Positions 12,189-42,227 of a stretch of 42,845 nucleotides of DNA are shown here, piece after piece. Source of the DNA: Clostridium sp. (lineage in GTDB: Bacteria > Bacillota > Clostridia > Acetivibrionales > Acetivibrionaceae); assembly GCA_012841175.1 (NCBI GenBank), contig DUVG01000032.1:1-42845 (forward strand), read 5' to 3'. The notes beneath the pieces are model-generated. The model saw nothing but the letters and a program-made list of their open reading frames with translations, ran no database searches and was not told where the DNA came from. Position numbers and translations under genes: made by a program. Every line of letters begins with the position of its first letter. Position 1 is the first letter of the stretch.

Positions 12189-13823
12189 ATGTGGTATGAT
12201 AAATTTTTAAGTATATATAAAGCAGGAATATCCCATGAATTTATTCTCTATTTTAATATAAGAGATGTTGTTGATAACTATAGGTTTATTGACAGATACA
12301 TTTATGAGGAATTCATTAAAAGCAGAAATTTTTCCATTGTGGCATTTTATGACATATCTAAAGGATTGACTTTTTTAGAACCTGAAATGGAAAGAGAATT
12401 TAATAAAATCACTTCAAATGTGGTAAAAGATTATATGCATGCAATGCCTTCTAAATTGTTTTACTACATTGATATGGCATTAAAGAGTACAAAAATGGCT
12501 TTATTTGTAGACCATGTAGAAAAAATAATACCATCAGGTGATGTGGGATCAATGTCCATTGAAGAGAGAATGGCACTTATATGGTTATGTGAGTGGTCAA
12601 ACAGTTCAAAAATATCTTCTGTGGGAAGTACTATATTTTTAATGGCAAACACCCTTGCTGAAGTAAATAGCGAAGTGCTAAAGTCAGCTTATAGAATAGA
12701 ACCTATATTAGTGGAACTGCCCAACGAAAAAGAGCGAATAGACTATATACAGTATCTTTTAAAGGACAAAAGTGTTAAGATGGATATTAGCGTTAGTGAT
12801 TTTGCAAAATTGTCCTCTGGACTTAGTAAAAAAGCAATAAAAGATATAAAACTTAAATCTGAAGCTGAAGATGTGCCTATAAGTTTTGAATTTATTAAAG
12901 ATAAAAAGTACTCTGTTTTAAAAAAGGAATATGGAGATGTTTTGGAGTTTATTTATCCAGAGATAGGATTTGACGATATAGGAGGAATGGAGAAGGCCAA
13001 AAACTATCTTTTAAAAAATATTGTTGAACCTATTAGAAAAGGGGATTTAAGAAGAGTTCCAATGGGAATACTTTTGTGTGGACCTTCTGGTACAGGGAAA
13101 ACACTTTTAGTTAATGCTTTAGCAAAGTCAAGTGGTTTTAATTGTGTTAAAATAGATATGTCTAGGATACTAGGTCAGTATGTTGGTGAGAGTGAGAAAA
13201 ACTTTAAAAAGTGTCTATTAGGTGCACAATCACAAGAGCCTGTGATAGTTTTTGTTGATGAGATAGACACTGTTTTTAAAAGAGGAGAAAGTGGAGATAG
13301 TGGAGTTAGTAGAAATATTTTTAATGAATTTTTGCAATTTACCAGTAATACAAATAATAGAGGAAAAGTTATATTTATTGCAGCAACTAACAGGCCGGAT
13401 CTTTTAGATGCAGCACTAAAAAGAGCGGGAAGATTTGATAAAAAAATACCCATATTGTTACCAGAGGAAAAAGAAAGAGCTGAAATATTTAAAATAATAA
13501 TTAACAGATATGGATTTAGTACTGATGTGGAGGATTTTTCTCCTTTTGCAAAAGAGACGGCAAATTACACAGGAGCAGAGATTGAAACAGTTGTCAGAAA
13601 AGCCTATGAGATAGCAAATGAGGAAGATATCAAAGGAAGTGTGCTTACAGAGTATGTACTAAAAGAAGCTATAATACGCTGTAGGCCTAGTACTCAACAG
13701 GTGGAATTTATGACTATGCTAGCCATTAAAGAATGTGATGACAAAGATTTGCTTCCTGAAAAATATAAAAATGTATTAGATGATAGAGGAATTTTATTAG
13801 ATGGGCACAAAAACTTCAAATAA
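12189..13823 (+). CDS. Classical-clade AAA+ ATPase with a degenerate N-terminal AAA-like module and an intact C-terminal AAA domain
   Basis: FDDIGGME, Walker A GPSGTGKT, pore loop QYVGESEK, Walker B IVFVDEID, SRH AATNRPDLLDAALKRAGRFD. The N-half keeps remnants ALFVDHVEKI / ELPNEKER without a Walker A. Confidence 0.9.
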   Translation: MWYDKFLSIYKAGISHEFILYFNIRDVVDNYRFIDRYIYEEFIKSRNFSIVAFYDISKGLTFLEPEMEREFNKITSNVVKDYMHAMPSKLFYYIDMALKSTKMALFVDHVEKIIPSGDVGSMSIEERMALIWLCEWSNSSKISSVGSTIFLMANTLAEVNSEVLKSAYRIEPILVELPNEKERIDYIQYLLKDKSVKMDISVSDFAKLSSGLSKKAIKDIKLKSEAEDVPISFEFIKDKKYSVLKKEYGDVLEFIYPEIGFDDIGGMEKAKNYLLKNIVEPIRKGDLRRVPMGILLCGPSGTGKTLLVNALAKSSGFNCVKIDMSRILGQYVGESEKNFKKCLLGAQSQEPVIVFVDEIDTVFKRGESGDSGVSRNIFNEFLQFTSNTNNRGKVIFIAATNRPDLLDAALKRAGRFDKKIPILLPEEKERAEIFKIIINRYGFSTDVEDFSPFAKETANYTGAEIETVVRKAYEIANEEDIKGSVLTEYVLKEAIIRCRPSTQQVEFMTMLAIKECDDKDLLPEKYKNVLDDRGILLDGHKNFK

Positions 13824-13897
13824 ATTTACTATTTACAAAGACCAACATTTATTATAAATTAATGAATAGTAAGAACTATTTTTAAGGAGGAGCATAT

Positions 13898-14638
13898 ATG
13901 GGTTTTTTTAGTAGACTAGGGAGTTTGATAAGAGGTTTTTTTGGAGGTTTGCTAGGAGGCTTGGAGGAGAATAATCCAGACCTTTTATTTGAAGATATAA
14001 AAAATCAAATTAAAAAAGCACGTAAGGAAGCTGAACAGCAGATAATAGAAATTCAGACAAATGCAGAGCTGATAAAGATTGAAATGAAAAATGCAGAAAA
14101 AAATTTGGATGCAGTAAAGGCAAGGATTGAAACTGCTAAAAGGCAAGGAGATAGAGAACTTTTAATAGAATTGCTTATGCATGAAGAAGAATATCAAACT
14201 GTGTATGAAACCCATAAAGCTACTCATGATAACGCAATGAGAGAAGTTGAAGCCATACGAGAAAATTACAAAGTATTTGAATCTGAAATGAATTCAAAAC
14301 TAAATGAATTGAAAACTTTAAAGACTCAAGAAAAAATGGCAAAATTAAAGGAAAATATAAATACTGTTAATGCAAAGTATGCATCTAAAAACAATAAAAT
14401 TGGAAACATAAATGAGAATATGGATAGAGCAAGAGAGATAGTTAATAAAAAAATTGCAAGGGCAAATGCTGTGGAAAGCCTTAATGATGCTAATATAGAT
14501 ATGAAATTAAAGAAATTAGATTTAAATTCTGCACGTGAAAGAGCAAGAGCAAGGGCAGAAGCTATATTAGGTGGAGATAGCGGATTTGAAGTGAAAGAAA
14601 AGGCAGAAAACAAAAAGATAGACCTTAATAAAAATTAG
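13898..14638 (+). CDS. pspA: PspA/IM30 (Vipp1, bacterial ESCRT-III-like) family protein
   Basis: N-terminal amphipathic MGFFSRLGSLIRGFF...LEENNP followed by long coiled coil, 246 aa, AGGAGG RBS. Confidence 0.8.
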   Translation: MGFFSRLGSLIRGFFGGLLGGLEENNPDLLFEDIKNQIKKARKEAEQQIIEIQTNAELIKIEMKNAEKNLDAVKARIETAKRQGDRELLIELLMHEEEYQTVYETHKATHDNAMREVEAIRENYKVFESEMNSKLNELKTLKTQEKMAKLKENINTVNAKYASKNNKIGNINENMDRAREIVNKKIARANAVESLNDANIDMKLKKLDLNSARERARARAEAILGGDSGFEVKEKAENKKIDLNKN

Positions 14639-29240: not shown

Positions 29241-30311
29241 TTAAATGCCTTCTGAGTTATATAGAGTTTCAACAAATAAAGTGTTATTTGTATTAACATC
29301 TATTTTGTATAAATCATACTTTTCTTGAGTTCCTCTTCTCACAGTCAGTATATAATAGATAGACTCTCCATCATATACAAAACCATTTAAATATGAATTT
29401 ACTGGAGTTTCTGATTCAGTATTAGGAGTATGCTCACTTATTAAATTAAGTACATCATTAGCTTTGCTTATTGAGAATATTCTAATGGTTCTTGGTTGTT
29501 CAATACTTTGAGTATCAAAATATAGTGTATCATTTATAAAATATTTTGAAGTTTTAACAATTGTATCAGGATAATCAATGCTTAAAAATGAATCCAGCTC
29601 AGACTGATTATAAGGATATTGTAATATAAATTTACTATGATAATTGTCATTAGTTAATTTTGCAACATCCTTGCCGTCTATAGAAGTTATAATGTAATTT
29701 GTTTCAAAAGAACCTGTAGCCTCACCACGATCATTGGTCTTACCATCTGGTATAAAAACTATTGGTTGATAAAGTACAACATCATTAACTACAAGCATTG
29801 AACTAACTCTTTGACATTCGTAAGAATGAATTTCTTTTTTATTGTCACCATTAAAAGCCATTTTAACAATTTGATGTTTTGCATTACGATTAGTTTTAGT
29901 ATCATCTGTAATGTCAGTCCTAGCATAATATAGTTCACCTTTGTAAACGTTTATATTGGATATTTTTCCTGTATCTAGCTCAAATTTATTAGAACCATCT
30001 TTATTCACTCTGTATAAACCATTGTTGTCAGAATAGAAAAGATATTGATCTGATACTGCTAAAATTTTAGAGTTAGATGCATTCTTGATATCATTGTCAA
30101 CAACAAAAGACTCATTTAGTTTTTCCTCTAACTTATTAGATATATTCCTTCCATCAGATCCATTAGATGATGGACTTGAAGCTAATTTGATAGCAACAAC
30201 AAGAATAAGAATAATAACAGCAATAGATACTACAGTTAATATAATTTTTTTTGGCTGTTTATTGTTGGTATTTGGATTTGAATTTCCAAACAATGGTATT
30301 TCGCTACTCAT
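29241..30311 (-). CDS. Single-TM-anchored DUF5050-like beta-propeller protein
   Basis: N-terminal TM; LFYSDNNGLYRVNKDGS...INVYKGELYY repeats typical of DUF5050. AGGAGG RBS. Confidence 0.7.
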   Translation of the reverse strand: MSSEIPLFGNSNPNTNNKQPKKIILTVVSIAVIILILVVAIKLASSPSSNGSDGRNISNKLEEKLNESFVVDNDIKNASNSKILAVSDQYLFYSDNNGLYRVNKDGSNKFELDTGKISNINVYKGELYYARTDITDDTKTNRNAKHQIVKMAFNGDNKKEIHSYECQRVSSMLVVNDVVLYQPIVFIPDGKTNDRGEATGSFETNYIITSIDGKDVAKLTNDNYHSKFILQYPYNQSELDSFLSIDYPDTIVKTSKYFINDTLYFDTQSIEQPRTIRIFSISKANDVLNLISEHTPNTESETPVNSYLNGFVYDGESIYYILTVRRGTQEKYDLYKIDVNTNNTLFVETLYNSEGI

Positions 30312-30563
30312 TATTAGACCTCCTGGTAAAATTCTTTTGTTTTTTATTTTTTAAATGTACATTATTGTTAGTAAAACAACAATAATTTTAATACTAGATT
30401 ATTATAACACAAAAACAGCGAATATTGTATAGCTTTTATTTAACAAATTTTAATAATAGTACTTTATTAATAAAAATTTAATGTTTAAGTTTTTATAAAA
30501 ATGTGTTATTATATAAAATATCGGATTTTAGAAAAGAATTTATTATAAGTGGAGGGAAATTCG

Positions 30564-32039
30564 GTGAAAAAGATATTTTTTATTACATTATTATTGTGCA
30601 TTGTTTTAATTGGGTGTTCTAAAGAGTTAACAGATCAATATGTTTTGGAGGAAAAAGTTGAAACAGTTCCTTCAGGAGATTCAGAATCAACTATACGTTA
30701 TCCTGTTATAACAGGCTTAAATGACAAAAAGGTTGAAAAAAAAGTAAATGATGATATAGATGAAAGAATCAGTGGATTTAAAAGAGGACTTGAAAACTTT
30801 AAAGAAATTGCTGAGATGGAAAACGATACTATAGATGTAAAATATGAAGTTGCATATAAATCAAAGGAAATATTAAGTATAAAGTTTGAAGTTATATCTT
30901 ATATGAGAAGTTTCGGAGTAGAAGACCATGTTCTTATAGGTAAGAATTACAATTTGAAAACAGGGGAACTTTTAGAATTAAAAGATATTTTAAAAGGAGA
31001 TTATAAAAGCCAATTAGATGCAAAGATAGAATCTAAGTTTTCAGAACTAGATGTGGAGTTGGTAAAAAAGTTTGAAGGAATTAACGAAAAATCAGAGTTT
31101 TATATAAAAGACAATAGTTTAGTATTTTTCTTTAGTGCTGTTGAATATATAAATGAGGTAGGTCAGTCATTGGAAATTGAAATTCCATTTAATGAGATAA
31201 GTGAAGTTTTAAAAGAGCCGCTGGCATTTGGGCGGGATACCAGCCCAGAACTAGACAACTACAACATAGCGATTAATGATAAAACAAAGCCTTTCGAGGC
31301 TTTGTTTTTTATTGGGGAAAATATTAGAAATGTATCAGGAAAAGATTCTACCACAATGATTTTAAGTTTTGAAGAAATACAAGAAAAATATATAGGAATA
31401 TATGAAGAAATTTTAATTGACAGTGAAACACAAGAAAAGCTTTTTGAAGTTTTTGGAAATACATTTGAGAAAGATAAGCTTAATGAATTAGGGGATGATG
31501 ATTTAAAAACATTGTTGACAGAAATAATAAATGGTGGTTATATGATAATAAATTTAGAAGGGTTATTTACTATAGTTCAAGATTATAGAGTTTTAGAGGA
31601 GTACGCTGGATATTTGCCCGATGATATAAAAGATTATATTTACCTTAAAGCAAATGAATCTAAGGATTTACAAGAACTAAAAATAGGAGGAACTTTGTCT
31701 TTTAAGCAAATAAAAGATAGAATAATAAAATATGAAGATTATATAAAAACATATCCTGAGACTATAAAAGAATACGTAGTTAGTAGAGAGCATATGCATC
31801 TTTTACATTCATATTTTTTTGGTTTTGATGGGATGCCAGCTTTTGATTATGCCACAAATAAAATTAATGATGAATTGCTTCAAAGTTATAAAGAGTTTGT
31901 TAGTGTGAATAGCAACTCAGAGACAGCCAAAATAATTGAAGGCTATTTAGAGGTGTTAGAAAGAAATAATTATACTTTGTGTGAAGAAGTAGAAGAGTAT
32001 AGAAAAAGTTTTTCAAGTATAAATGAAAATTATTTTTAA
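30564..32039 (+). CDS. Lipoprotein with DUF4163/DUF3298 (PdaC/RsiV-like) N-domain and an unknown helical C-domain
   Basis: GTG 30564 behind GGAGGG; lipobox LIG-C. IRYPVITG, YNLKTGELLELKDI, FYIKDNSLVFFF and EIPF motifs. Confidence 0.75.
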   Translation: MKKIFFITLLLCIVLIGCSKELTDQYVLEEKVETVPSGDSESTIRYPVITGLNDKKVEKKVNDDIDERISGFKRGLENFKEIAEMENDTIDVKYEVAYKSKEILSIKFEVISYMRSFGVEDHVLIGKNYNLKTGELLELKDILKGDYKSQLDAKIESKFSELDVELVKKFEGINEKSEFYIKDNSLVFFFSAVEYINEVGQSLEIEIPFNEISEVLKEPLAFGRDTSPELDNYNIAINDKTKPFEALFFIGENIRNVSGKDSTTMILSFEEIQEKYIGIYEEILIDSETQEKLFEVFGNTFEKDKLNELGDDDLKTLLTEIINGGYMIINLEGLFTIVQDYRVLEEYAGYLPDDIKDYIYLKANESKDLQELKIGGTLSFKQIKDRIIKYEDYIKTYPETIKEYVVSREHMHLLHSYFFGFDGMPAFDYATNKINDELLQSYKEFVSVNSNSETAKIIEGYLEVLERNNYTLCEEVEEYRKSFSSINENYF

Positions 32040-32067: not shown

Positions 32068-34311
32068 TTATTGCATTGTCTTTTTCTTTTTATCTGTTAT
32101 TATTTTATGGATTTTGGGGTAACCTTTAGAGGTATAGACTTTTAATGCTTCATCATAGCTTGCTTTGGCAAGTTTTTTGTTTTCCTTTGTCTTTTGTAGT
32201 TCTCCAAGGTAAACATAGCTGTCACCAAGTTTTATGTGGATATCCCCATAGGATTCAGGAGTTGTATCAATGGAATAATACATCAGAGTATCCTTATAGG
32301 AGTTTATACTTTTTATAATATTTTCTGCTGGATTCTCAATACCAGCTTTAACAAAGTAGGCATCACCAAGGACTGTTTTTATATTGGCAAAATAATAAGG
32401 TGAGGCTTCTAGGGTAAATATCTCTAGTGCAGTCTCACATGCTTCAATGGCCTTGTCTATATTTTCTAATGGTTGGATATCCAATTTAGTAAGTTTTATT
32501 AGTGCGGAAGCAAGGTACCCCTGGACATATGCAAAATAAACCGGATCGGTTTGTGGATTATATACTGTCAATGACGTTTCAAAGCATTTAATAGCTTCGT
32601 TTAAGTTATTTTCAGGTTCACTTATATTGCTAAGGTCCATGTATGTTTTTCCAAGTTCAATGTTTGTGGTGGCAAAATTATCCAGATATTTTTCCGGTGT
32701 AGAAATCTTCAAAGAATTTTCAAAGGACTTTAGTGCCTTAAAATAGTATTCTTCCTCTCCATTTATTTCTGCAATAACTCTATAGGCACCTCCCATATAA
32801 TATTGAAGCTGTGAATAATACAAGGGATATTGCTCAATGGTATATACCTTTGCTGCTTCATTAAGGGCTTCAATAGCTTTTTTAGCAAATTCCGCCGAAT
32901 TTGTAAAATGGGACATCTGTATATATAATACGGACAACTGGGTTTGTACATATGCATAATTTGCTGGGGAGGTATCTAAGCTGCAATATTTTAGAGATTC
33001 ATCAAAGGCAGAAATACTTGCCTCAAAGATTTCATTTGATGGATTAATACTCATGAAATTCTGATAAACAATTCCGATATAGCATTGAATTCGAACATAT
33101 TTGCTAGGGTCATCTTTGGCATCTATGCATTTTAAGGCATCCTGAAAGGCTTCTAAAGAAGTATAAATATCCTTTATGTTGTTAGAACTTGAGAATATAC
33201 GCATATAAATAATTCCCTGAATCTCTTTGGCATCTGCATACTCATAGGGTGTTGTTTCAAAAGTGAATATACTAAGGGCTTCTTCACAGGACTTTAATCC
33301 CTGTTCTAGGTTCTTGTTAGGTTCCTTCACAAGAGCTAATGTGTAATGGTAATATGCTTTATAAATTTGAGTATATGCATAGTCGTAGGAATTCTTTTCT
33401 TTATCATATAATTTCAGGGCTTTATCCATTGCAGCTAGTGACTTGGATAAATTAATTTCCATATTCCTTACGTTTGAGTAATAAGCATAGGCCCTTCCCA
33501 TACCTTTATATGCATGGGCAATGTATAAAGAATACTTTTGGTCTTGTATCTTATCTAATACTTCTTGAAAAATAGATATTGCTTTTAATGAATTTTCTTC
33601 CTTATTAATGATATGAGATAAACTTATATAAGCGTTTGCCATATTAATCATAGTATGGGCATATTCTTCAGGATTTTTTTCACTTGAAATACCTTGTAGT
33701 ATCTCTTCATACCTTTTTATAGCACCCCAATAATTATGGTTTTCTAAGAGGATGTTGGCATTTTCGATTTCCTGATATGCTCCCTTATCATATTTTTTTA
33801 AAACACTTACAATTAGGTTGTTTCCTGCAACAAGAAAATTATTATTACCAGAGACAGAAACATTTGCCTCGTTTTTAGTAACAAAATAAAGGGTTTTTTC
33901 TTTATCTTCAACATCTATACTTATGTTCAAGGTCTCACATATTATCTGGGAAGTTACGTATATTCTTCCGTTGATAATTGAAGGGGGAACTAGAAGGGGC
34001 AACATTTTGCCATTGATCTGTGCGGTTTTGCTTCCCACTTGTATTACTACCTTTTTGTCCGCTTTTGTACATGAAGCTGTCTTATGGGTATTATCCCACT
34101 GTACATGGAATCCAAAAAGCTCATAAATTTCTCTTAGGGGCAATAATAAATTTTCTTGCAACCTTATAGGTGCCATGGTAAATTGCACAGGATGTCCATT
34201 TATTTGTACATTATACTCCTGGGATGCTTCTGCTTTCTGTACATACAGTAAAGACAGTATTAGAATTAGGGATGTAAATAAAACTGGCAAAAATATTTTT
34301 TTCTTTTTCAT
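32068..34311 (-). CDS. Exported protein: signal peptide, copper-amine-oxidase-like N-terminal (stalk) domain, shared 21-aa motif, about 12 TPR-like repeats
   Basis: Signal ending AEA-SQ; LLPLREIYELFGFHVQWD...TAQING...PSIINGRIYV stalk domain; about 47-aa repeats AIxxxExALxxYTxExxPxxYAxxxxxLGxAY. Confidence 0.85.
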   Translation of the reverse strand: MKKKKIFLPVLFTSLILILSLLYVQKAEASQEYNVQINGHPVQFTMAPIRLQENLLLPLREIYELFGFHVQWDNTHKTASCTKADKKVVIQVGSKTAQINGKMLPLLVPPSIINGRIYVTSQIICETLNISIDVEDKEKTLYFVTKNEANVSVSGNNNFLVAGNNLIVSVLKKYDKGAYQEIENANILLENHNYWGAIKRYEEILQGISSEKNPEEYAHTMINMANAYISLSHIINKEENSLKAISIFQEVLDKIQDQKYSLYIAHAYKGMGRAYAYYSNVRNMEINLSKSLAAMDKALKLYDKEKNSYDYAYTQIYKAYYHYTLALVKEPNKNLEQGLKSCEEALSIFTFETTPYEYADAKEIQGIIYMRIFSSSNNIKDIYTSLEAFQDALKCIDAKDDPSKYVRIQCYIGIVYQNFMSINPSNEIFEASISAFDESLKYCSLDTSPANYAYVQTQLSVLYIQMSHFTNSAEFAKKAIEALNEAAKVYTIEQYPLYYSQLQYYMGGAYRVIAEINGEEEYYFKALKSFENSLKISTPEKYLDNFATTNIELGKTYMDLSNISEPENNLNEAIKCFETSLTVYNPQTDPVYFAYVQGYLASALIKLTKLDIQPLENIDKAIEACETALEIFTLEASPYYFANIKTVLGDAYFVKAGIENPAENIIKSINSYKDTLMYYSIDTTPESYGDIHIKLGDSYVYLGELQKTKENKKLAKASYDEALKVYTSKGYPKIHKIITDKKKKTMQ

Positions 34312-35915
34312 TTCTGTTTACCAACTTCCTTTTTGGTTTCAATTTCATATTTATGGGTTTCTAACTTTTCAATGGCCCAAAGGGTTTGCTCATAATGCCT
34401 TGGGTATTCTAAAGGGTTTAAAACTTCAAAGCTGTTTTCATATGCCATAGAGGCTTCATATAAATATTTATCACTGGTTTCCAATAGAGATAAAAGTATT
34501 TTTAAGCTGCCAAGTTCATAATTTGTCACAGCATAGAGGAAAGGGGAGCGTTCTTTTGAATAGAACTGTAAAGTCTCCTCATATTCTTTTTCTGCTCTAA
34601 ATAAATATTCAGCATTTCCAAAAATTTTGTAGCATTTAGTGTACATATCTCCTAAATATTTATGGACCTTTGCATAATTTAAAGGGTAGCTTTCGGCAGT
34701 CCAAACCTTTAATGCCTCATTAAAATTGTTTATTGCTTTTTCTGGAGTATTTATTTTCTGTATGTTCTTTTCCTCTAAAAAGTGTAGTTCTTCAAGGATA
34801 CTGTGGATGGTACCTAAATGAAAGTGTATAGTTGCATAAGAATATGGGGTTTTGTCCAATGAATATTTATCTAGCAGCATTTCAAAAACATCTCTTGATG
34901 CTAAAAAACACTCTTTTGAAAGATCCACTAATCCTAAGTTATAATAAACCTTTCCCATATTATATTGAATTAGAGCATAATCCATAGGGTGGGTAGAAAG
35001 GTTGTAGTACTTCAATGCCTTTTCATAATAAACTGAAGCTTCTACAAGGTATGAATTATTGCCGGTAATATCATATAAATTTTTGTACCCACTTCCTAGA
35101 TTATTAAGTATTATGCTGTAATTTGCAGTATCATCAATATCAATGAAATGTTCCATAGCCTCAAGGTAGGAGCTGATTGCACTTTGGATATTACTTTTAG
35201 TATCCTTGTATTCAGCAAGCTTTTGGTATGCATTTCCACAATTGTTCATTACATGAGCGTAAATGTCTGGCATTTCTTCCTTTGAAAGGTTGTCCAAAAT
35301 ATCATTATACTTGTCCAAAGCTTCTTGTGTATCATTTAAGGAAAGAAGCCGGTCTGCAAAACTAAGCATATCGCTAATAGTATAGATATCCCATGGTTCA
35401 AAAATGTTTATAATCATACTTTCTCCAATTATAACGATGTTACTGCCTCCATTTACTGTGACGCTTGTTGTATCTTTATCTGAAGTGATAATTATATTGT
35501 CTTTTTTATTCCATCTGACTTTAAGACCAAACTCCTTTGTTATAAATTTCTTTGGTACATAGCTCATATTTCTTATAATGGTTAAGGGTTCATCCATTAT
35601 AGAATATTTGCCGTCAATTTCAACCATTGTGCTGTCTAATTTAAAATGAATAACCCTGTTATTATTTGTACAGATAACAGTCTTTAATTGTTCATCCCAA
35701 CTAACTGTCCATCCTAAAGCCTCAAAAATGCTTCTTAAGGGAATATATATAGTGCCATTTATATTTTCTGGACGGGCATTTTTAATATTAAGGCTCTCTG
35801 TAGTTAATTTTATATCTTTTGCAACGACTGTTTTGTTATTTTGTATCAAACAGAAAAATGTAGCAAAAACTGTAAACGCAATCAACAACAGTATTCTTTT
35901 TTTTCTATCTCTCAT
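34308..35915 (-). CDS. Exported paralog: signal peptide, stalk domain, shared 21-aa motif, about 7-8 TPR-like repeats
   Basis: ATG 35915 behind AGGGTG; IYIPLRSIFEALGWTVSWD stalk domain; YAHVMNNCGNAY, YSIILNNLGSGY, YALIQYNMGKVY repeats. ATGA overlap with the next gene. Confidence 0.85.
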   Translation of the reverse strand: MRDRKKRILLLIAFTVFATFFCLIQNNKTVVAKDIKLTTESLNIKNARPENINGTIYIPLRSIFEALGWTVSWDEQLKTVICTNNNRVIHFKLDSTMVEIDGKYSIMDEPLTIIRNMSYVPKKFITKEFGLKVRWNKKDNIIITSDKDTTSVTVNGGSNIVIIGESMIINIFEPWDIYTISDMLSFADRLLSLNDTQEALDKYNDILDNLSKEEMPDIYAHVMNNCGNAYQKLAEYKDTKSNIQSAISSYLEAMEHFIDIDDTANYSIILNNLGSGYKNLYDITGNNSYLVEASVYYEKALKYYNLSTHPMDYALIQYNMGKVYYNLGLVDLSKECFLASRDVFEMLLDKYSLDKTPYSYATIHFHLGTIHSILEELHFLEEKNIQKINTPEKAINNFNEALKVWTAESYPLNYAKVHKYLGDMYTKCYKIFGNAEYLFRAEKEYEETLQFYSKERSPFLYAVTNYELGSLKILLSLLETSDKYLYEASMAYENSFEVLNPLEYPRHYEQTLWAIEKLETHKYEIETKKEVGKQK

Positions 35916-35970
35916 AAATATCACCCTACAAAATATTCTAAATATTCAATACATACCTAAAGTCATAAAA

Positions 35971-37092
35971 TCAATTAGTTTCAATACTGACAGCGTTTTG
36001 CTCCCCCACTATCAAATTAAGGTTTTCACCACTAATTTGAATATTGAAGTTATTCCAGCTGTTGATTTCCGTATTATTTGTTGTAGTTTTCTCAGAGCTG
36101 TTAACAACATTATTTGTTATAGTTTGTTCAAAGTTTTCATTGGTGTTATCTATTTCATTACCAACAGCTTCATTTTCTTTTTGTTTATCTTTCTCCTGAT
36201 TATCTTCTTCCTGATTATCTTCCTCCTGTTTGCCTTCTTCCTTTAGACTGTTAATTTCTTTTGGCTCAGCCTCATATGTAGGAGTAGGTAGTGGCTGAGA
36301 AGCAGATGATTCCATTTCATCTGCAGCAGGTTCATTGTATTCCTGATAGTTTTCCAAAGAATTTAAGTCATTTTCTAAATGGTCGGATTCATCATATACA
36401 TTATGACTTTTTGAAGCATAAGCAAAAGGATTAATTTTTGAAGTATCTACAGAAAAAACAATTAACCCACCTAAAATTACCCATACTAGCAATACTCCTA
36501 AAGCGGTGCTTCCTTTAAAAAAGTTTGCAATTCTTAATGTTTCCCTTTTAGGAAAAAGATTTAATTTTCCCTTGAATTCTATTTCTGAATCGGAAACTAA
36601 TTTTTGCAAATTTATATTATTTCCTTCAGGAAGAATAAAATCAAGATCTACAGTACCGGAATAAGTTTCTTTTCTTTTTGTCTGTGGCTCTTTTTTTACA
36701 ATGCTTGGAGTTCTTTTTTCTTTTTCAGAGCGATAATATATATTCTTTCCATCATAATCTGGCATTGAGACACTTATGGCCTCTTTTAGAAATTCACTGA
36801 AGTCCTGGGTATTGATAATAATATCCTTAATCTTGCTTTTGATTGGTGTATTTTCAAGTAATTGCTCAATATCGTCCCGTATCAATTCTTTTTGGGAAAG
36901 TGTAGCTTCGTTATTTACAAATTCTACAATTCTAATAATATCATCGTTTTTGGGATATGCTACGTTATTTCGCCATTTGGATATAATGGATACATCCTTT
37001 AACAGATATCCGTCAGCAAGAATTCTTGCATTCTTCTTAGTATACTTAAAAATAATTTCTAACAGTGTTTTCATATTATAAATGTTGCTCAT
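35971..37092 (-). CDS. Bitopic membrane protein: N-terminal XRE-like HTH, one TM, acidic low-complexity stalk, C-terminal 21-aa motif
   Basis: ATG 37092 behind GAGGGG. NARILADGYLLKDVSIISKWRNNVAYP is HTH-like; TM ALGVLLVWVILGGLIVFSV; E/N/Q-rich linker. Confidence 0.7.
   Translation of the reverse strand: MSNIYNMKTLLEIIFKYTKKNARILADGYLLKDVSIISKWRNNVAYPKNDDIIRIVEFVNNEATLSQKELIRDDIEQLLENTPIKSKIKDIIINTQDFSEFLKEAISVSMPDYDGKNIYYRSEKEKRTPSIVKKEPQTKRKETYSGTVDLDFILPEGNNINLQKLVSDSEIEFKGKLNLFPKRETLRIANFFKGSTALGVLLVWVILGGLIVFSVDTSKINPFAYASKSHNVYDESDHLENDLNSLENYQEYNEPAADEMESSASQPLPTPTYEAEPKEINSLKEEGKQEEDNQEEDNQEKDKQKENEAVGNEIDNTNENFEQTITNNVVNSSEKTTTNNTEINSWNNFNIQISGENLNLIVGEQNAVSIETN
36181..36232 (-). repeat. 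15-bp coding tandem repeat (QEEDN-like units)
   Basis: Encodes QEEDNQEEDNQEKDKQ within the acidic stalk. Confidence 0.7.
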
Positions 37093-37277
37093 TGTAATCA
37101 CCCCTCGTGAAATACTGGTGTAATTTTCTAATAATAATTCATTGACCTTACTTCAGTGGTTATTTTTGCTTTTCTAAATTTATCATACATATTATACACT
37201 ACATTTATGAAGAAATACATCACAAAATATTAATATTTGTATTTTTTTTAGATAGAAATAAAAAGCCAAAAGGGTAT

Positions 37278-37300
37278 AGGCTGGAGATTTTCTCCAGCCT
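37278..37300 (-). terminator. Hairpin downstream of the S8 peptidase gene
   Basis: aggctggaga-ttt-tctccagcct perfect 10-bp stem. Confidence 0.65.
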
Positions 37301-37358: not shown

Positions 37359-40300
37359 TTACTCTATCTGTGCAGGGAATTTAGAGGTGTTTCCAAGCAT
37401 ATAGATTCTAAATATTGCAAAATCAATGGCATTTATGTCACCGGATGCATCTACATCTCCACTAATTGCTGAATAAGCTCCCGGAAGATTTTTAATCTGT
37501 CCTGTAAGGTACTTATTCATAAAGGCAAAATCGAGAGCATTACATTCACCGTTACCATCTACATCACCATATATAAAGATGTCAACAGCACCATCTATAA
37601 GCTTTAATCCTTTATATTCGTAGGAATTTACGCCATAGACCTTAGAGTTGCCTTTGACGAAGGACAAAGGACTAGTCTTTGTAGTAGTAACACTTTGAAG
37701 CACATCAAACTCTATATTAGCTAAAATTCCATTGTTGCTTATTGCTTGCTGTGTTCCGTTATAACAGATGTTTATGGTACCAAGAGTATTATCAATATTG
37801 TAGGAAAAAGCATTACTATCAGCTATAACGCTTCCAGAAGTTATAGTGGTTACTGAAAGAGTGGATGGATCGTACTCTAGAGTTACATCCACTTCATATA
37901 TTCCTTTTGCAGGTACATTGGATATTGACAGAGGAAGAATTTTGGTTCCTGCTTTTGGCTCCATTAAGCCACTTCCCATGTCTAATTTTATAATGTTTTC
38001 ATCTGAAGGTGAATATGAGTACATGGTATCAATTACGTCAATATCAATAATGAGATCCAGCATTCCACCCATAGTATATATTTTGTTTCCGTCAAATACC
38101 GAACAATTTCTTGCCATGACTGAAGGCAGGCTATGTTTTTCTGTCCAGGTTTCATTAACAGGATCGTATTCGTAAACACTGCTTAAGTCTATTGAATAAT
38201 CAGACCCACCAATGATATATATTTTATCGTTAATTACAGCAGTTGAGAATTGCATATATCCTTGAGGCATAGGTTCTTTAGCTGCCCAGTTATCAGTTAA
38301 CGGGTCATACTCATAGATGGAATCTAGCACTCCTGTTGAGTTGTTTCCACCTATTACATATATCTTTCCATTTAAGGTAACTAGACCATGATTAACCCTT
38401 GGAATAGGCAGGGAAGCAACTGTAGACCAACTGTTGCTGATTGGGTCATATTTATAAACACTTTGTGAAAGTTCGATACTTGAATCTGGATCGTTTAATT
38501 TTTTTTGCCCACCTACAACATATAGATAACCGTCTAAAGAAACAGCCTTGTGCATGGAAAGACCTTCAGGCATATTTGCCTTTTTAGTCCATGTCCGATT
38601 GGCAGGGTCATATACTTCAAGAACATTAGAATAAGATGTATATAACTTCCAATAATTACCGCCGCATACATAAATCTTACCGTCAATAACTCCGGATGCT
38701 AAATGTAGCTTTTCTTCGGACATTGAAGGGCATAAAGACCATGTACCTGTAGATATATCATATTCTTCTACAGTTTTTACAGGACTAAAATTCCTATTTT
38801 GTCCTCCGATGGTATATATTTTTCCATCCACAATTTCTGCAGTAAAGAAGGCTTTTTCATTAATCAAGGAAGGCTCTTGGCTCCAGCCGTCTTTTTGAGG
38901 CATATAGCAAAGATTTTGATCACTGTATGATGAGTCAACAAAACCACCTAGAATATATATATTTCCATTCTGAGTAGCAGTAGCATGCCCATAAACCTCT
39001 GAAGGCAATTCAACTCTTTTAACCTCTGAACAAGTTAGAGTATCATATTCTATAATTTGAGTTGAATTTTTTCCACCAAAGATATAGAGTTTTCCATTTG
39101 ATTCAGACACGCAAAAGTGGCTGTTCCAGTCGCTAAGGTTATTTTTTACTGTCCAATTTCCAGATGAAGGATCAAATTCTTCCACTGTTTTAAGGTTATC
39201 AGTATCGCATACTCCACCCATAACAGTAATTTTGCCATTTACAACTCCTGTGCCAAAGTTACTTCTAGCTGTTGGCATATCATTTGCACTGGTCCATGTA
39301 TCAGTGTTAGGATTATATACTTCGACACTTTTCAATGTAGTTCCGTTGTATCCACCTATTACATAAATCTTGCCATCTACACAGGCAACACCAAAATCAC
39401 TTCTTGGAGTGCTAATGCTACTCTTTACAGTCCAGCTGTCATTAGCAGGATTATATTCCTCAACGGTGTTAAGATAGGAGTTGCCGTCAAATCCACCAAT
39501 TGCATAAATTTTGCCGTTGTCTGCTTCAACCATTCTAAAACCACTTCTGTTTTGTGACATAGGAGTCTTTTGTTCCCAAGTGTCATTGGAAGGATCATAT
39601 GCTTCTACTGTATTTAGATAATTTGAGCCGTTTTTACCACCTGCTATGTAGATTTTTCCATTCTCCGATGCTGTTGCACCAAAATCCATTCTTTTAGTGG
39701 TCATAGGGCTTCTATAGGAAGTTCCTATATCGGGAATGGAGATTTTTAGAATATTGCTAGAATCGCTGTTGTTAAAATCTGTTTTAGCTCTGATGAAAAA
39801 TTCGTAATCTGTTTTTGGCATAGGATCTTTAAATATATATGTATTTGTGTCAGTGGATGTTAAATAGCTATTATTCATATATATTTCGTAGGAGGTTGCG
39901 TTTGAAACAGCATTCCATGTAAGTTTAATTCCTTCATCAGTCCAAGTATTTGTAAGGACAGGTGTGTCTAGTTGTGTAAAGTGTGTAAATGTAGAACTCC
40001 AAGCACTATCAGTTCTGGAATCCTTGGATCTTATTCTGTATGTATGTTCAGAATTATAAGCAAGATTGCTGTGAGTATAGCTTGTTTCGGAAACATTTAC
40101 AATACTCATACCGTCCACTTCTACGTCATAAGTTACTGCACCAGGAACAGCATCCCAGTTAATTGTTATGAAGTCAGTAGTTGCTGTGGCTTTTATAGTT
40201 TTTGGTGTACTGAGAAAATCCGATGAACCTACCAGTGCAAAAGGCTGAGGTCCGTGAGGTACTGAGTAACCCAATACTTCTACTGTGTATTCACCTACAG

Positions 40301-42227
40301 CAGGATTGTTGATTATTACATTCTCTACATTGTTTATTCTGTCAAAATCAGAGTCGTAAGGAAAGGTAAAATCATTTCCGTAATATGCCACTGTACCGCC
40401 TGGAGATGTTACTTTAAGATCTAGATCGTTTACCAATGCACTTGCGTTTTGTGGTGACGCAGGATAATCTGACCAAACCAAGCTTATTTTTAATGGTTTG
40501 TCGGTTGTGGTGCATGATATGGTATAACTTGATTTTTGACCTTCTGATACAGAATCGGTGTCATTGATAATTTGTGCTCCAAAGATTGAATCGTACAGAC
40601 TAACTTTTCCCCAACCTTTATCTTGGCTATATCCATTCTGATCTAAAGCACCGTTGATGACAAATGCCTTTAATAGAGCGGCACTTGGAGTTATATTATA
40701 ATTGTCTATAATATACTCTCTAATTAGGGCTACAGTACCAGAAGTAATAGGAGTAGACATAGATGTACCACTCATAAATTCATAATTTGAGTTGCCTGGA
40801 TAAGGCAAGCAGTATTGCAATAAATCAGGTATTATTGAAGATGACATTGTTGAAGCTATATACGTACCTGGTGCTACAACATCTGGTTTGATTCTTCCGT
40901 CTTGGCATCCCCTGCTCGAGAAAAAAGCTGTTTCGTTTGGATCATCAGATATAGATGAACCACTATACAATTTCATATAAGGTCTAAAATTTTCTGTTGA
41001 ACCCACTGTAAGGCAGTTTTTGGCAGTAGCTGGTGAACCTACAGTACAATCATTCGGACCCTCATTTCCTGAAGCAACCACTATAAGCATGTCTTTATGT
41101 GACCAGACAAAGCTATCTACGTCAGCACTCCATGAACCATAGGAACCAAGTGCAGCATTTCCCCAAGAATTACTGTGAATTCTTACTCCATTATCATAAG
41201 CCTCCTGAAATAGTTCCTCTAAAGAACCAGGCATGACGGAACCATCAGCACTAGCTATTTTTTGAACAACAAGATTTGCCTTAGGAGCCATACCTTTAAT
41301 TTTTCCTTGGGACATTACACCGTTTCCTACAATAGATCCTGCAACATGTGTGCCATGTCCGTTCTCATCAGCACCAGAAGAACCTATTCTGTCAATAATT
41401 TTATTTATCCTTCCAAAAAAGTCTCTATGAAGAGTTCCGTTATTGAAACCTGAGATTCCTTTATCAAGTCCACTATCGGCAACACCTACAATTTGACCTC
41501 TTCCTTCATAGCCAAAAGTTGAAACTAGCTCGGACTGTACAATACCTGAAGCTTTATTGTTATTAATTCTAAACTCAGGTACTTCTTCTATGAATTTGAC
41601 AGATTTAAGAGTAGATAGTTCTTCTACTTTATCCAATGAAATTTTAGCATAGAAATCATTTCCGCTTTGGTATACATTGGAAGCACCCAAATCTTCTATT
41701 TCACTTTTCAAATTGGTATCATCAATTCCAAAAGTACTTATTCTAACTTCTAATTCCAAATCAGATACATCAATGGATTTTACAGATTTTGCACCTATAT
41801 TTCCCATTACTTTTGACATTAGTGCAGGGTCAATTTTGTATTGGTTTTCATAGGTAAAAACATCTACAACATGGGAAAGGTTTTTCACTGTTTCTGCAAT
41901 ATCTGCAGTCATATAGCAAAGATACGAATAATCCGGTGTGTAATCTAGAAACTTCACTCCAAGTTTCATTATAGAATTTTTTACTTCATCTGTTATAGGG
42001 CCATCAAAGGATACAATATAGGGTCTTTCTTCATTTGAAAAAGCCCTATATAATGCTTGCATCCTTTTAGATGACCCCTTACCTGGTTCTAGTGTTGCTG
42101 CTTTCAGGTAAACTTTATGACCTTTACCTGAAGAATCTTGTGCTGCCGAGACATTTGTACTTACACTACCGGCAGATAAAACAATCGAAGCCGAGAGTAC
42201 ATATGCCATAAGTTTTTTAAATTTCAT
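37359..42227 (-). CDS. Secreted subtilisin (S8, Kp43-like) - 2x Fn3 - 12 Kelch repeats - cohesin - type I dockerin (1622 aa)
   Basis: Signal peptide; triad VADSG, HGTHVAG, GTSMSTP; LVWSD/LVNDLDL C-domain; 12 GG-containing Kelch repeats; cohesin-like LPLSISNVPAKGI...YDPSTL...GILANIEF; dockerin GDVDGNGECNALD / GDVDASGDINAID. Confidence 0.9.
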   Translation of the reverse strand: MKFKKLMAYVLSASIVLSAGSVSTNVSAAQDSSGKGHKVYLKAATLEPGKGSSKRMQALYRAFSNEERPYIVSFDGPITDEVKNSIMKLGVKFLDYTPDYSYLCYMTADIAETVKNLSHVVDVFTYENQYKIDPALMSKVMGNIGAKSVKSIDVSDLELEVRISTFGIDDTNLKSEIEDLGASNVYQSGNDFYAKISLDKVEELSTLKSVKFIEEVPEFRINNNKASGIVQSELVSTFGYEGRGQIVGVADSGLDKGISGFNNGTLHRDFFGRINKIIDRIGSSGADENGHGTHVAGSIVGNGVMSQGKIKGMAPKANLVVQKIASADGSVMPGSLEELFQEAYDNGVRIHSNSWGNAALGSYGSWSADVDSFVWSHKDMLIVVASGNEGPNDCTVGSPATAKNCLTVGSTENFRPYMKLYSGSSISDDPNETAFFSSRGCQDGRIKPDVVAPGTYIASTMSSSIIPDLLQYCLPYPGNSNYEFMSGTSMSTPITSGTVALIREYIIDNYNITPSAALLKAFVINGALDQNGYSQDKGWGKVSLYDSIFGAQIINDTDSVSEGQKSSYTISCTTTDKPLKISLVWSDYPASPQNASALVNDLDLKVTSPGGTVAYYGNDFTFPYDSDFDRINNVENVIINNPAVGEYTVEVLGYSVPHGPQPFALVGSSDFLSTPKTIKATATTDFITINWDAVPGAVTYDVEVDGMSIVNVSETSYTHSNLAYNSEHTYRIRSKDSRTDSAWSSTFTHFTQLDTPVLTNTWTDEGIKLTWNAVSNATSYEIYMNNSYLTSTDTNTYIFKDPMPKTDYEFFIRAKTDFNNSDSSNILKISIPDIGTSYRSPMTTKRMDFGATASENGKIYIAGGKNGSNYLNTVEAYDPSNDTWEQKTPMSQNRSGFRMVEADNGKIYAIGGFDGNSYLNTVEEYNPANDSWTVKSSISTPRSDFGVACVDGKIYVIGGYNGTTLKSVEVYNPNTDTWTSANDMPTARSNFGTGVVNGKITVMGGVCDTDNLKTVEEFDPSSGNWTVKNNLSDWNSHFCVSESNGKLYIFGGKNSTQIIEYDTLTCSEVKRVELPSEVYGHATATQNGNIYILGGFVDSSYSDQNLCYMPQKDGWSQEPSLINEKAFFTAEIVDGKIYTIGGQNRNFSPVKTVEEYDISTGTWSLCPSMSEEKLHLASGVIDGKIYVCGGNYWKLYTSYSNVLEVYDPANRTWTKKANMPEGLSMHKAVSLDGYLYVVGGQKKLNDPDSSIELSQSVYKYDPISNSWSTVASLPIPRVNHGLVTLNGKIYVIGGNNSTGVLDSIYEYDPLTDNWAAKEPMPQGYMQFSTAVINDKIYIIGGSDYSIDLSSVYEYDPVNETWTEKHSLPSVMARNCSVFDGNKIYTMGGMLDLIIDIDVIDTMYSYSPSDENIIKLDMGSGLMEPKAGTKILPLSISNVPAKGIYEVDVTLEYDPSTLSVTTITSGSVIADSNAFSYNIDNTLGTINICYNGTQQAISNNGILANIEFDVLQSVTTTKTSPLSFVKGNSKVYGVNSYEYKGLKLIDGAVDIFIYGDVDGNGECNALDFAFMNKYLTGQIKNLPGAYSAISGDVDASGDINAIDFAIFRIYMLGNTSKFPAQIE

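What the first reader, a model, noticed from the sequence alone, without database searches (positions are those of the whole stretch)
32068..37092. Candidate new system: a shared amyloid-like motif links a membrane-anchored HTH protein to two exported TPR proteins
Seen: three consecutive co-oriented genes (55-nt gap, then ATGA overlap) share a 21-aa segment that aligns without gaps, although the HTH protein is otherwise unrelated to the TPR pair. HTH-TM protein, extreme C-terminus (36045-35983): NIQISGENLNLIVGEQNAVSI. TPR-A (35465-35403): SVTVNGGSNIVIIGESMIINI. TPR-B (33864-33802): NVSVSGNNNFLVAGNNLIVSV. Both glycines are invariant (G-x7-G), I/V/L positions 2, 4, 11, 12, 19 and 21 are shared, and the rest is N/S/Q-rich with no Pro, Lys or Arg: a strand-turn-strand-turn-strand pattern. 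In both TPR proteins the motif lies immediately N-terminal to the repeat array; in the HTH protein it caps a disordered stalk. Known: this placement (motif N-terminal to a repeat sensor, C-terminal on an adjacently encoded effector) is the hallmark of amyloid signalling pairs such as fungal NWD2/HET-s and bacterial NLR/Bell BASS motifs. The composition is RHIM-like, though the canonical (I/V)Q(I/V)G core is not matched exactly. Differences: no NB-ARC/NACHT domain, the TPR proteins have signal peptides, and the effector looks like a transcription factor. Inference: extracellular TPR sensors co-assemble through the motif (cross-beta or hetero beta-solenoid) with the receptor tail, clustering the cytoplasmic HTH domains in a ToxR-like manner. 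I know of no described system of this form.
Basis: partly seen in the sequence, partly recalled or inferred. Interest (0 to 1): 0.92.

Follow-up and report, generated by a model that had tools for sequence, protein, structure and literature searches.

The report
Three-protein regulator joined by shared motif
In cellulose-degrading clostridia, three neighbouring genes encode a predicted membrane-anchored DNA-binding regulator and two predicted exported repeat proteins that share a co-evolving 21-residue segment, which likely stacks them together outside the cell to control gene expression, an arrangement our literature searches did not find.

Summary
A profile built only from the TPR-side motifs of other loci ranks the three window segments 1-3 of 501,672 21-mers in this genome. 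The cassette (XRE-fold HTH, one TM helix, disordered stalk and motif; plus two signal-peptide/CAO-N/motif/TPR proteins, A and B) recurs across one clostridial order. Of 65 loci, 53 of 54 HTH proteins with the motif have such TPR neighbours, and 0 of 11 without it do. HTH and TPR-B motifs co-vary within loci, in register only (16 clades, p 5e-5), without raised codon identity. A and B are fused in some loci. Two loci lost the TM helix and normal signal peptides together while keeping the motifs. The amyloid reading is only partly supported: there is no NLR domain or RHIM core, and in the TPR proteins the motif sits between two folded domains with about 5-residue linkers. Most likely it forms a short, finite heteromeric beta-stack that clusters the HTH domains. 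Binding, ligand and target genes are untested. I found no description of it in the searched literature.

The parts
35971..37092 (-). Gene H: 373-aa predicted single-pass transmembrane regulator (XRE-fold HTH, conserved juxtamembrane segment, TM helix, disordered stalk, C-terminal motif)
   Evidence: homologues in 38 of 149 genomes of the order
36757..37086 (-). XRE/Cro-fold helix-turn-helix domain, residues 3-112
   Evidence: AlphaFold2 helices 7-109; VIA-align Z 6.7-6.9, rmsd 1.8-1.9 to ImmR and P22 c2; no Pfam hit
36547..36666 (-). Conserved cytoplasmic segment before the TM helix (residues ~143-182), function unknown
   Evidence: Y144 and G146 invariant; low pLDDT
36451..36504 (-). Predicted TM helix (residues ~197-214), N-in/C-out
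   Evidence: K/R before > after in 42 of 44 homologues
36046..36450 (-). Predicted disordered extracellular stalk, E/N/T-rich, 72-198 aa across loci
   Evidence: pLDDT below 50; lengths
35983..36045 (-). Shared motif, H copy (residues 350-370), three residues from the C-terminus
   Evidence: beta strands 342-346, 349-353, 358-362, 367-371 at pLDDT about 52-75
34308..35915 (-). Gene A: 535-aa predicted exported protein (signal peptide, CAO-N, motif, TPR superhelix)
35487..35780 (-). CAO-N (PF07833) domain of A
   Evidence: Pfam E 3.3e-24
35403..35465 (-). Shared motif, A copy (residues 151-171); the most conserved of the three
   Evidence: pLDDT 84-88 with only two short strands assigned in the monomer
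34311..35387 (-). TPR superhelix of A
   Evidence: TPR_12; Z 24.4 to LGN, 20.4 to NprR, 19.7 to Rap
32068..34311 (-). Gene B: 747-aa predicted exported protein (signal peptide, CAO-N, motif, longer TPR array); paralogue of A, 25% identical
33886..34206 (-). CAO-N (PF07833) domain of B
   Evidence: Pfam E 3.2e-25
33802..33864 (-). Shared motif, B copy (residues 150-170); co-varies most strongly with the H copy
37191..37201 (-). Conserved TAGTGTATAAT element upstream of H, a -10-like box; likely the cassette's own promoter
   Evidence: seen by eye in the window and L029-L031, with variants in L088, L089, L090, L126; not picked by the consensus scan
37278..37300 (-). Hairpin followed by T-runs between the upstream protease gene and H; likely a terminator
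   Evidence: similar hairpin in L029-L031; not listed by the scan
37359..42227 (-). Secreted S8 peptidase-fn3-Kelch-cohesin-dockerin protein; recurrent neighbour and candidate regulated gene
   Evidence: same family beside the cassette in L029-L031, L088, L089, L093; L135 and L138 carry Kelch-cohesin-dockerin neighbours

Best explanation
This is a conserved three-gene cassette whose products likely form a transmembrane regulatory complex: the predicted exported proteins A and B would pair and stack their 21-residue motifs in register, and the predicted extracellular tails of the XRE-fold HTH protein H would add on as further beta-rungs. The stack would be short and finite, because the A and B rungs carry folded domains on both sides. 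A long disordered stalk cannot easily pass a conformational change, so the signal is likely clustering: two or more H tails on one A-B seed (for example H-A-B-H) would bring the cytoplasmic HTH domains together for DNA binding. The TPR grooves likely bind a peptide or protein ligand that gates this step. The likely targets are the adjacent secreted-protein, RiPP or NRPS genes. Shown: motif, gene order, co-occurrence, co-loss, in-register co-variation, A-B fusions. Predicted: folds and topology. Inferred: binding, stoichiometry, ligand, DNA binding and targets. I put mutual binding through the motif at about 0.85 and the finite clustering mechanism at about 0.5.
For: (1) Co-occurrence: 53 of 54 motif-bearing H proteins have a CAO-N/TPR neighbour and 0 of 11 motif-less ones do (65 loci). 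The no-neighbour state needs 10 changes on the HTH tree, at least 6 forced by well-supported branches. The exception, L045, has A and B on another contig of the same genome (L132), and a close relative has all three adjacent (L155). (2) Co-variation at clade level (16 clades): H-B identities 7.71 vs 6.08 for non-cognate pairs (p 5e-5), shared non-consensus residues 1.88 vs 1.09 (p 5e-5), H-A 6.64 vs 5.86 (p 8e-4), A-B 8.46 vs 7.74 (p 0.007); longer Gly spacing in both H and B in 4 clades vs 1.5 expected (p 0.009). In L052/L053 all three motifs lose the second Gly and gain a residue. (3) Register: the H-B excess is at offset 0 (z 5.2-5.4), all other offsets at or below 2.1. (4) No sign of recent DNA copying: identical codons at identical residues 155/373 = 0.42 in cognate vs 0.44 in non-cognate H-B pairs. 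(5) A-B fusions keep both motifs (L032, L034; a 1231-aa protein of the same kind in L147). (6) L113 and L114: H has lost TM and stalk but kept the motif, B has lost its signal peptide, and the usual ATG of A is out of frame with its signal peptide; dN/dS 0.37-0.47. (7) A TIR domain is inserted between HTH and TM in L115 and L119; TIR domains act by self-association (recalled). (8) Predicted beta strands in the H tail and a confident extended segment in A.
Against: No structure or experiment shows the geometry. The co-variation fits any in-register assembly, including a fibril or a three-fold beta-helix. Length changes are shared by H and B but not A in three clades, and by H alone in L093 and L110, so matching is not strict. 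The H-A and A-B signals are weaker, with off-register values of similar size (z up to 2.7), and A-B shared non-consensus residues miss significance at 23 clades (p 0.07). Clades are not fully independent, so p-values are optimistic. L113/L114 are two close relatives with higher dN/dS than most other pairs (0.14-0.42) and may be decaying; L113 A could still use a TTG start giving a short signal peptide. Several loci carry split or stopped genes (L029 B, L035 H, L038 A and B, L052 A, L133 B). No operator, ligand or cognate peptide gene was identified. DNA binding rests on fold only.
Confidence: 0.5

Rival explanations
1. A fixed 1:1:1 heterotrimer, possibly a short triple-stranded beta-helix with one chain from each gene, holds H at the cell surface. 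The output is control of H stability: the partners shield the tail from proteolysis, and ligand releases or exposes it, as for TcpP/TcpH-type regulators.
For: Three genes and three copies of the motif. Gly spacing of 8 in 107 of 138 motifs, [VI]xG at positions 4-6 in 110 and at 12-14 in 74 of 138, like the VxGxxxxx repeat of the T4 gp5 triple beta-helix (PMC4576200, passages). Partners of transmembrane regulators often inhibit proteolysis (PMC10269533, passages). All three pairs co-vary.
Against: Only two such repeats, and the third strand is out of step with an 8-residue period. Length changes shared by only two of three chains. The TM-less form in L113/L114 and the TIR insertion fit clustering better than intramembrane cleavage. 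Some loci have one TPR gene next to H (L119, L134).
Confidence: 0.2
2. True amyloid signalling outside the cell: the A-B pair nucleates a self-propagating cross-beta fibril built mostly of H tails, which clusters many HTH domains.
For: In-register co-variation. Composition I 22%, N 20%, G 13%, V 12%, P 0.1%, K 1.8%, similar to the bias reported for BASS motifs (10.1101/2020.01.06.895854, section 9). The effector motif is C-terminal on an adjacent gene, after a long N/T-rich disordered stalk. The same HTH also occurs in all-in-one HTH-NB-ARC-TPR proteins (P0077, P0078, P0102), and a TIR domain occurs on the effector side, both features of BASS systems in that paper.
Against: No NOD domain. RHIM-like core in 1 of 138 motifs. 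The A and B motifs are internal, about 5 residues from folded domains on either side. The cited paper describes BASS beside cytoplasmic NLRs, and says NLR-like architectures are rare or absent in Firmicutes. An irreversible polymer suits cell death better than transcription control (inference).
Confidence: 0.17
3. The three motifs do not bind each other; each binds a common fourth factor (a chaperone, a protease or a surface polymer) that sorts or anchors them.
For: A shared motif in co-expressed exported proteins could be a sorting signal. S8 proteases are frequent neighbours.
Against: Locus-specific, in-register co-variation would need a locus-specific fourth partner, but neighbouring genes differ widely (111 clusters among 204 neighbours). 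No other protein of this 55%-complete genome carries the motif. It is kept in the apparently cytoplasmic form (L113/L114).
Confidence: 0.08
4. The segment is an integral part of the CAO-N/TPR fold, and its likeness to the H tail is a compositional coincidence or a relic of DNA copying.
For: AlphaFold2 models the A segment confidently in the monomer (pLDDT 84-88). Before relatives were used, one unrelated genome segment tied with the H tail.
Against: Profile ranks; conservation in 46 loci; co-loss; other CAO-N proteins end without it or continue differently; codon identity not raised.
Confidence: 0.03

Closest known systems
Co-component transmembrane regulators (ToxR/ToxS, VtrA/VtrC, TcpP/TcpH); PMC9214523 and PMC10269533, passages read
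   Same: Cytoplasmic HTH, one TM helix, and partner genes in the same operon whose products act outside the membrane; VtrA/VtrC also join by extending a beta-sheet.
   Different: XRE-fold HTH; no folded alpha/beta-sandwich outside, only a disordered stalk and a 21-residue motif; two partners, not one; CAO-N/TPR partners instead of lipocalin-like ones; the joining element is the same motif in all three chains; clostridia, not enteric bacteria.
Bacterial and fungal amyloid signalling motifs (BASS1-10, RHIM/PP, HET-s/NWD2); 10.1101/2020.01.06.895854, abstract, passages and section 9 read
   Same: A short G/N/V/I-rich motif shared by adjacent genes, C-terminal on the effector and upstream of repeats on the sensor; the effector domain also occurs in all-in-one NB-ARC-TPR proteins; TIR can occupy the effector side.
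   Different: No NOD domain; two sensors; the sensor motif is internal between folded domains; predicted extracytoplasmic; transcription-factor-type effector; no RHIM core; fibrils untested.
RRNPP peptide-sensing regulators (PlcR, NprR, Rgg/ComR, PrgX, Rap); family features recalled, structures
   Same: XRE-fold HTH paired with a TPR superhelix; NprR (Z 20.4) and Rap (Z 19.7) are among the top TPR matches.
   Different: RRNPP proteins are single cytoplasmic chains. Here HTH and TPR are separate genes on predicted opposite sides of the membrane. LGN scores higher (Z 24.4), so the TPR match is not specific. No peptide gene identified.
T4 gp5-type triple-stranded beta-helix; PMC4576200, passages read
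   Same: 8-residue Gly spacing with a V/I two residues before Gly; assembled from three chains.

Membership tests
BASS / NLR-associated amyloid signalling | Receptor with NB-ARC or NACHT domain | tested here: not met
   Pfam finds only CAO-N and TPR in A and B
BASS / NLR-associated amyloid signalling | Motif at the N-terminus of the receptor | tested here: not met
   Residues 151-171 and 150-170, after signal peptide and CAO-N
BASS / NLR-associated amyloid signalling | Motif at the C-terminus of an effector encoded by an adjacent gene | tested here: met
   0-7 residues follow the motif in 35 of 44 TM-bearing H proteins, 22-47 in nine
BASS / NLR-associated amyloid signalling | Bell or other death-type effector (hydrolase, TIR, CHAT, cyclase) | tested here: not met
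   XRE-fold HTH in the window; a TIR domain is added only in L115 and L119
BASS / NLR-associated amyloid signalling | Composition rich in N, G, V, I and poor in K, P | tested here: met
   against section 9 of the BASS preprint; Q is not enriched (1.5%)
BASS / NLR-associated amyloid signalling | Forms seeded cross-beta fibrils | not testable with these tools
   Needs ThT, EM and diffraction; ArchCandy not available
RHIM / BASS3 / PP | G-phi-Q-phi-G core | tested here: not met
   [IV]Q[IVL]G in 1 of 138 motifs; signature
ToxRS/VtrAC co-component systems | Cytoplasmic HTH plus one TM helix, partner gene in the same operon | tested here: met
   co-transcription inferred from gene spacing only
ToxRS/VtrAC co-component systems | Lipocalin-like partner | tested here: not met
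   Partners are CAO-N plus TPR
ToxRS/VtrAC co-component systems | Alpha/beta-sandwich sensory domain on the regulator | tested here: not met
   Predicted disordered stalk with four terminal strands and no helix
ToxRS/VtrAC co-component systems | Obligate complex of regulator and partner | not testable with these tools
   Needs biochemistry
RRNPP regulators | XRE-type HTH | tested here: met
   Many XRE/Cro matches, Z 5-8, rmsd about 2; middling Z, fold only
RRNPP regulators | HTH and TPR in one cytoplasmic chain | tested here: not met
   Separate genes; signal peptides on A and B in all examined loci but L113/L114
RRNPP regulators | RRNPP-type peptide-binding TPR | tested here: inconclusive
   NprR Z 20.4 and Rap 19.7, below LGN 24.4
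RRNPP regulators | Adjacent pheromone precursor gene | not tested
   ORF lists used cut-offs of 60-90 aa
gp5-type triple beta-helix | VxGxxxxx repeat | tested here: inconclusive
   Two partial repeats (110 and 74 of 138); third strand out of period
gp5-type triple beta-helix | Three interdigitated chains about a three-fold axis | not testable with these tools
   No coordinates of a complex available

The most novel reading that the evidence does not exclude
An extracytoplasmic, amyloid-motif-type signalling system: a pair of exported TPR sensors forms a two-rung beta seed that templates the tails of a membrane-tethered transcription factor in register, finite or self-propagating, so that beta-stacking outside the cell switches DNA binding inside. 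Paralogous loci (up to five per genome) are insulated from each other by co-evolved motif sequences, the output domain is swappable (HTH, HTH plus TIR), and the whole device can move into the cytoplasm.
Probability: 0.6. Interest if true: 0.92.

Novelty: categorically new. Interest (0 to 1): 0.82.

Why it matters
Shared-motif beta-templating is known from cytoplasmic cell-death signalling; transmembrane transcription regulators are known to use folded sensory domains. This cassette appears to combine the two: a 21-residue motif shared by three gene products, co-evolving in register and predicted to act outside the membrane. If true, it is a new way to pass a signal across a Gram-positive membrane and a natural set of matched heteromeric beta-stacking motifs, with many cognate and non-cognate variants for testing specificity. 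It also points to regulators of secreted cellulosomal proteins and of uncharacterised RiPP and NRPS clusters in biomass-degrading clostridia. Named, cultured carriers exist (Acetivibrio straminisolvens JCM 21531, A. mesophilus N2K1, Pseudobacteroides cellulosolvens DSM 2933), so it can be tested directly.

Tried and rejected
Complex prediction (A and B N-terminal parts plus H tail, 46-row alignments): verdict 'no answer'. Scores 0.74, 0.69, 0.81; controls with the partner replaced 0.00 and 0.00; control with B replaced 0.68, so the required margin was missed. An alignment of the natural A-B fusion for folding failed, all rows fell on the B half, so A was folded alone. Foldseek on the H model gave no match at E <= 0.001. 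Fold searches were filled by the HTH and TPR parts, so the motif's fold was barely tested. PDB sequence search with the H-tail profile gave two weak hits (PycTIR E 0.064, Cry3Bb E 7.4), treated as chance. Pfam and NCBIfam name no family for H. Atlas hits for the HTH were 0.84-0.88, leads only. Gene conversion was tested and not supported. The promoter and terminator scan was at chance level (29 vs 29.0; 5 vs 3.0); no operator palindrome was seen by eye in 14 upstream regions. RNA runs: short low-depth contigs lie on all three genes in four metatranscriptomes, which does not show transcription. Phylum sample: 0 of 400 other genomes matched the H profile; this means not found in those searched, and the profile missed divergent H proteins in G030, G032 and G043. 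Earlier findings: none returned. Literature: searches returned no paper describing this cassette (two returned none at all); most listed papers were seen only as listings. PMC12261475 had no occurrence of six terms including Firmicutes, TPR and transmembrane in its main text. Subscription papers, and the supplements of the BASS preprint with its motif tables, were not seen and could bear on the novelty claim. Rows left out: five matches were not fetched (G048:C17, G066:C35, G115:C16, G071:C18, G075:C18). Loci were not counted, as most duplicate G-handle loci. The co-variation set is the window plus the 45 of 65 loci where both A and B were assigned.


Full report
Observation. The three segments are present at the stated coordinates, in three co-oriented genes with a 55-nt gap and an ATGA overlap. 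I call them H (373 aa), A (535 aa) and B (747 aa). The window is contig C197 of a 55%-complete genome; named relatives are Acetivibrio and Pseudobacteroides. With only the two window TPR motifs as query, the H tail tied with one unrelated segment among 501,672 21-mers. With profiles from other loci and the window's clade excluded, the three window motifs rank first to third, whether trained on TPR motifs only or on H tails only. The similarity is real.

Anatomy. H has no Pfam or NCBIfam match. Its AlphaFold2 model has a confident helical domain at residues 7-109 that aligns with many XRE/Cro repressors (ImmR Z 6.9, rmsd 1.8; P22 c2 Z 6.7, rmsd 1.9). These Z values are middling and show fold only. 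A TM helix follows at about 197-214, then a low-confidence stalk, then four predicted strands at 342-371. Basic residues are more frequent before than after the helix in 42 of 44 homologues, and the stalk is 72-198 residues long. In other loci the same HTH-TM ends in NPCBM or CAO-N domains, which supports an outside C-terminus. A and B each have a signal-peptide-like start (judged by a hydrophobicity heuristic and by eye), a CAO-N domain (PF07833), the motif, and TPRs. The motif lies about 5 residues after CAO-N and about 6 before the first TPR helix. In the A monomer model it is confident (pLDDT 84-88) but only two short strands are assigned. The TPR part is a superhelix closest to LGN (Z 24.4), NprR (20.4) and Rap (19.7).

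Distribution. The H profile matches 38 of 149 genomes of the order and the A profile 36 of 149, with up to five H matches per genome. None of 400 other genomes sampled from the phylum matched. I examined 65 loci around H homologues (five matches not fetched). Of 54 H proteins with the motif, 53 have a CAO-N/TPR neighbour; of 11 without it, none does. Two divergent motifs (L110, L052) score as low as motif-less tails and were called by eye; with a strict score cut of 14 the table is 51 of 52 against 2 of 13. On a tree of the HTH domain the no-neighbour state needs 10 changes, at least 6 forced by well-supported branches, and is no more clustered than shuffled labels, so it arose repeatedly; several of those rows are long branches. 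The one exception, L045, has A and B on another contig (L132), and a metagenome relative has all three adjacent (L155). A-B pairs in three genomes where the H profile had no match at that place (L129-L131) turned out to have a very divergent H-like gene with TM helix and terminal motif directly upstream. Gene order varies (H-A-B, H-B-A, B-H-A), and A and B are fused in L032 and L034 with both motifs kept.

Co-evolution. In 46 loci with all three genes the consensus is N-I-N-V/I-N-G-x-N-N-I-V-I-V-G-N-N-I-I-V-N-I. H and B are unrelated outside the motif, so common descent of loci alone would not make cognate H-B motifs more alike than non-cognate ones. They are more alike: with loci merged into 16 clades, 7.71 against 6.08 identities (p 5e-5) and 1.88 against 1.09 shared non-consensus residues (p 5e-5); 23 clades give the same picture. 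H-A (p 8e-4) and A-B (p 0.007) are weaker. Length changes are shared too: both H and B have a longer Gly spacing in 4 clades against 1.5 expected (p 0.009), and in L052/L053 all three chains lose the second Gly and gain one residue. The H-B excess appears at offset 0 only (z 5.2-5.4; others at most 2.1). Codon identity at identical residues is not raised (0.42 against 0.44), so recent gene conversion is not the cause. Clades are related hierarchically, so the p-values are optimistic. The simplest reading is selection for in-register contact between the motifs, as in stacked beta-rungs (inference).

Natural variants. In L113 and L114, H has lost the TM helix and most of the stalk but keeps the motif; B has lost its signal peptide, and the usual ATG of A is out of frame with its signal peptide. 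All other A and B proteins examined have normal signal peptides. The three genes show dN/dS 0.37-0.47, against 0.14-0.42 in six other pairs. This fits a move of the whole complex into the cytoplasm, but decay in one lineage is not excluded, and L113 A may use a TTG start. In L115 and L119 a TIR domain is inserted between HTH and TM. The HTH also occurs fused to NB-ARC-TPR, Roc-COR-TIR and PDZ domains and to multi-pass membrane regions, so it is a mobile output module.

Mechanism. A fibril containing A and B would have to stack chains about 4.8 A apart (recalled), each with a CAO-N domain and a TPR superhelix within six residues of the rung; this is sterically unlikely. A short stack is not. 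A disordered stalk of variable length cannot easily transmit a conformational change, and XRE domains usually bind DNA as dimers (recalled), so clustering is the likely signal. I therefore favour an A-B seed on which two or more H tails stack, gated by ligand binding in the TPR grooves (0.5). Rivals are a fixed 1:1:1 trimer that controls H proteolysis (0.2), a seeded fibril of H tails (0.17), a shared fourth partner (0.08) and coincidence (0.03). Neighbours suggest targets but do not prove them: the S8-Kelch-dockerin protein in six other loci, an ABC-exporter family in 11 loci with CcpM-type RiPP maturases beside six, a cyclic-peptide exporter with a C45 enzyme in 9, a B12 radical-SAM enzyme or S8 peptidase in 5 each, NRPS genes and dockerin-bearing glycoside hydrolases (44 of 111 neighbour clusters were scanned).

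Comparison. It works like a co-component transmembrane regulator (PMC9214523, PMC10269533; passages read) but lacks the lipocalin-like partner and the alpha/beta-sandwich. It works like an amyloid signalling pair in motif placement on the effector, composition and all-in-one counterparts (10.1101/2020.01.06.895854; abstract, passages and section 9 read) but has no NOD domain, no N-terminal receptor motif and no RHIM core (1 of 138). It has the domain inventory of RRNPP regulators, split over three genes and a membrane. The 8-residue Gly spacing recalls the gp5 triple beta-helix (PMC4576200; passages read) only in part. It is a member of none of these.

Novelty and verdict. Nine literature searches returned no description, and the scan's earlier findings held nothing; subscription papers and preprint supplements were not seen. 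The cassette, its co-evolving motif and its co-loss pattern are shown by sequence. Topology and folds are predicted. Binding, stoichiometry, ligand and targets are inferred. Interest 0.82; categorically new as an architecture, with the amyloid label unproven.

Noticed in passing
L113:6684-11798 and L114:4288-9119: H lacks TM and stalk, B lacks its signal peptide, and the usual start of A is out of frame; all motifs kept. Possible all-cytoplasmic form beside a CcpM-type RiPP cluster.
   Followed up: partly
L115:6526-8013, L119:6480-8024 (P0064): A TIR domain is inserted between HTH and TM in motif-bearing H proteins; in L115 a two-component pair lies between B and H.
   Followed up: partly
L121:6598-8517 (P0078), P0077, P0102, P0080: The same HTH heads NB-ARC-TPR proteins and a Roc-COR-TIR protein; L121 lies next to a CcpM-type cluster.
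   Followed up: partly
L116:7732-9120, L117:8048-9466, L120:6383-7819: HTH-TM fused to two CAO-N domains, without motif or TPR neighbours; two of the three sit beside CcpM-type RiPP clusters.
   Followed up: partly
L036:5625-6827, L109:8753-10519, L118:6942-8717, L122:6116-7720, L125:6594-7931: HTH with other C-terminal parts (NPCBM, unassigned beta-rich domains, PDZ-like, multi-pass membrane region): a family of undescribed one-component regulators.
   Followed up: no
L129:5799-6956, L130:5559-7028, L131:11207-12367, L134:9457-10392: Very divergent H-like proteins with TM helix and terminal motif; L130 has tandem repeats before the TM helix. In L134 both H and its single TPR neighbour lack the second Gly.
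   Followed up: partly
window 37359-42227: S8 peptidase-fn3-Kelch-cohesin-dockerin protein with both cohesin and dockerin; stays beside the cassette in two families, upstream or convergent downstream.
   Followed up: partly
window 36547-36666: Conserved cytoplasmic segment of H with two similar strand-like stretches before the TM helix; possible dimerisation element; largely absent from the TM-less form.
   Followed up: no
L029 (B), L035 (H), L038 (A, B), L052 (A), L053 (B), L133 (B), L139 (H): Split, stopped or shortened genes are common in the cassette, suggesting frequent decay or assembly errors.
   Followed up: no
L094, L096, L098-L102, L104, L105, L111, L051: H carries a 22-47-residue low-complexity extension after the motif.
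   Followed up: no
window 30549-32039 and 29241-30311: Convergent lipoprotein-like PdaC/DUF3298 gene directly after B, and a DUF5050 protein; not seen as recurrent neighbours.
   Followed up: no
window 12189-14638: AAA ATPase gene followed by a PspA/IM30 family gene.
   Followed up: no
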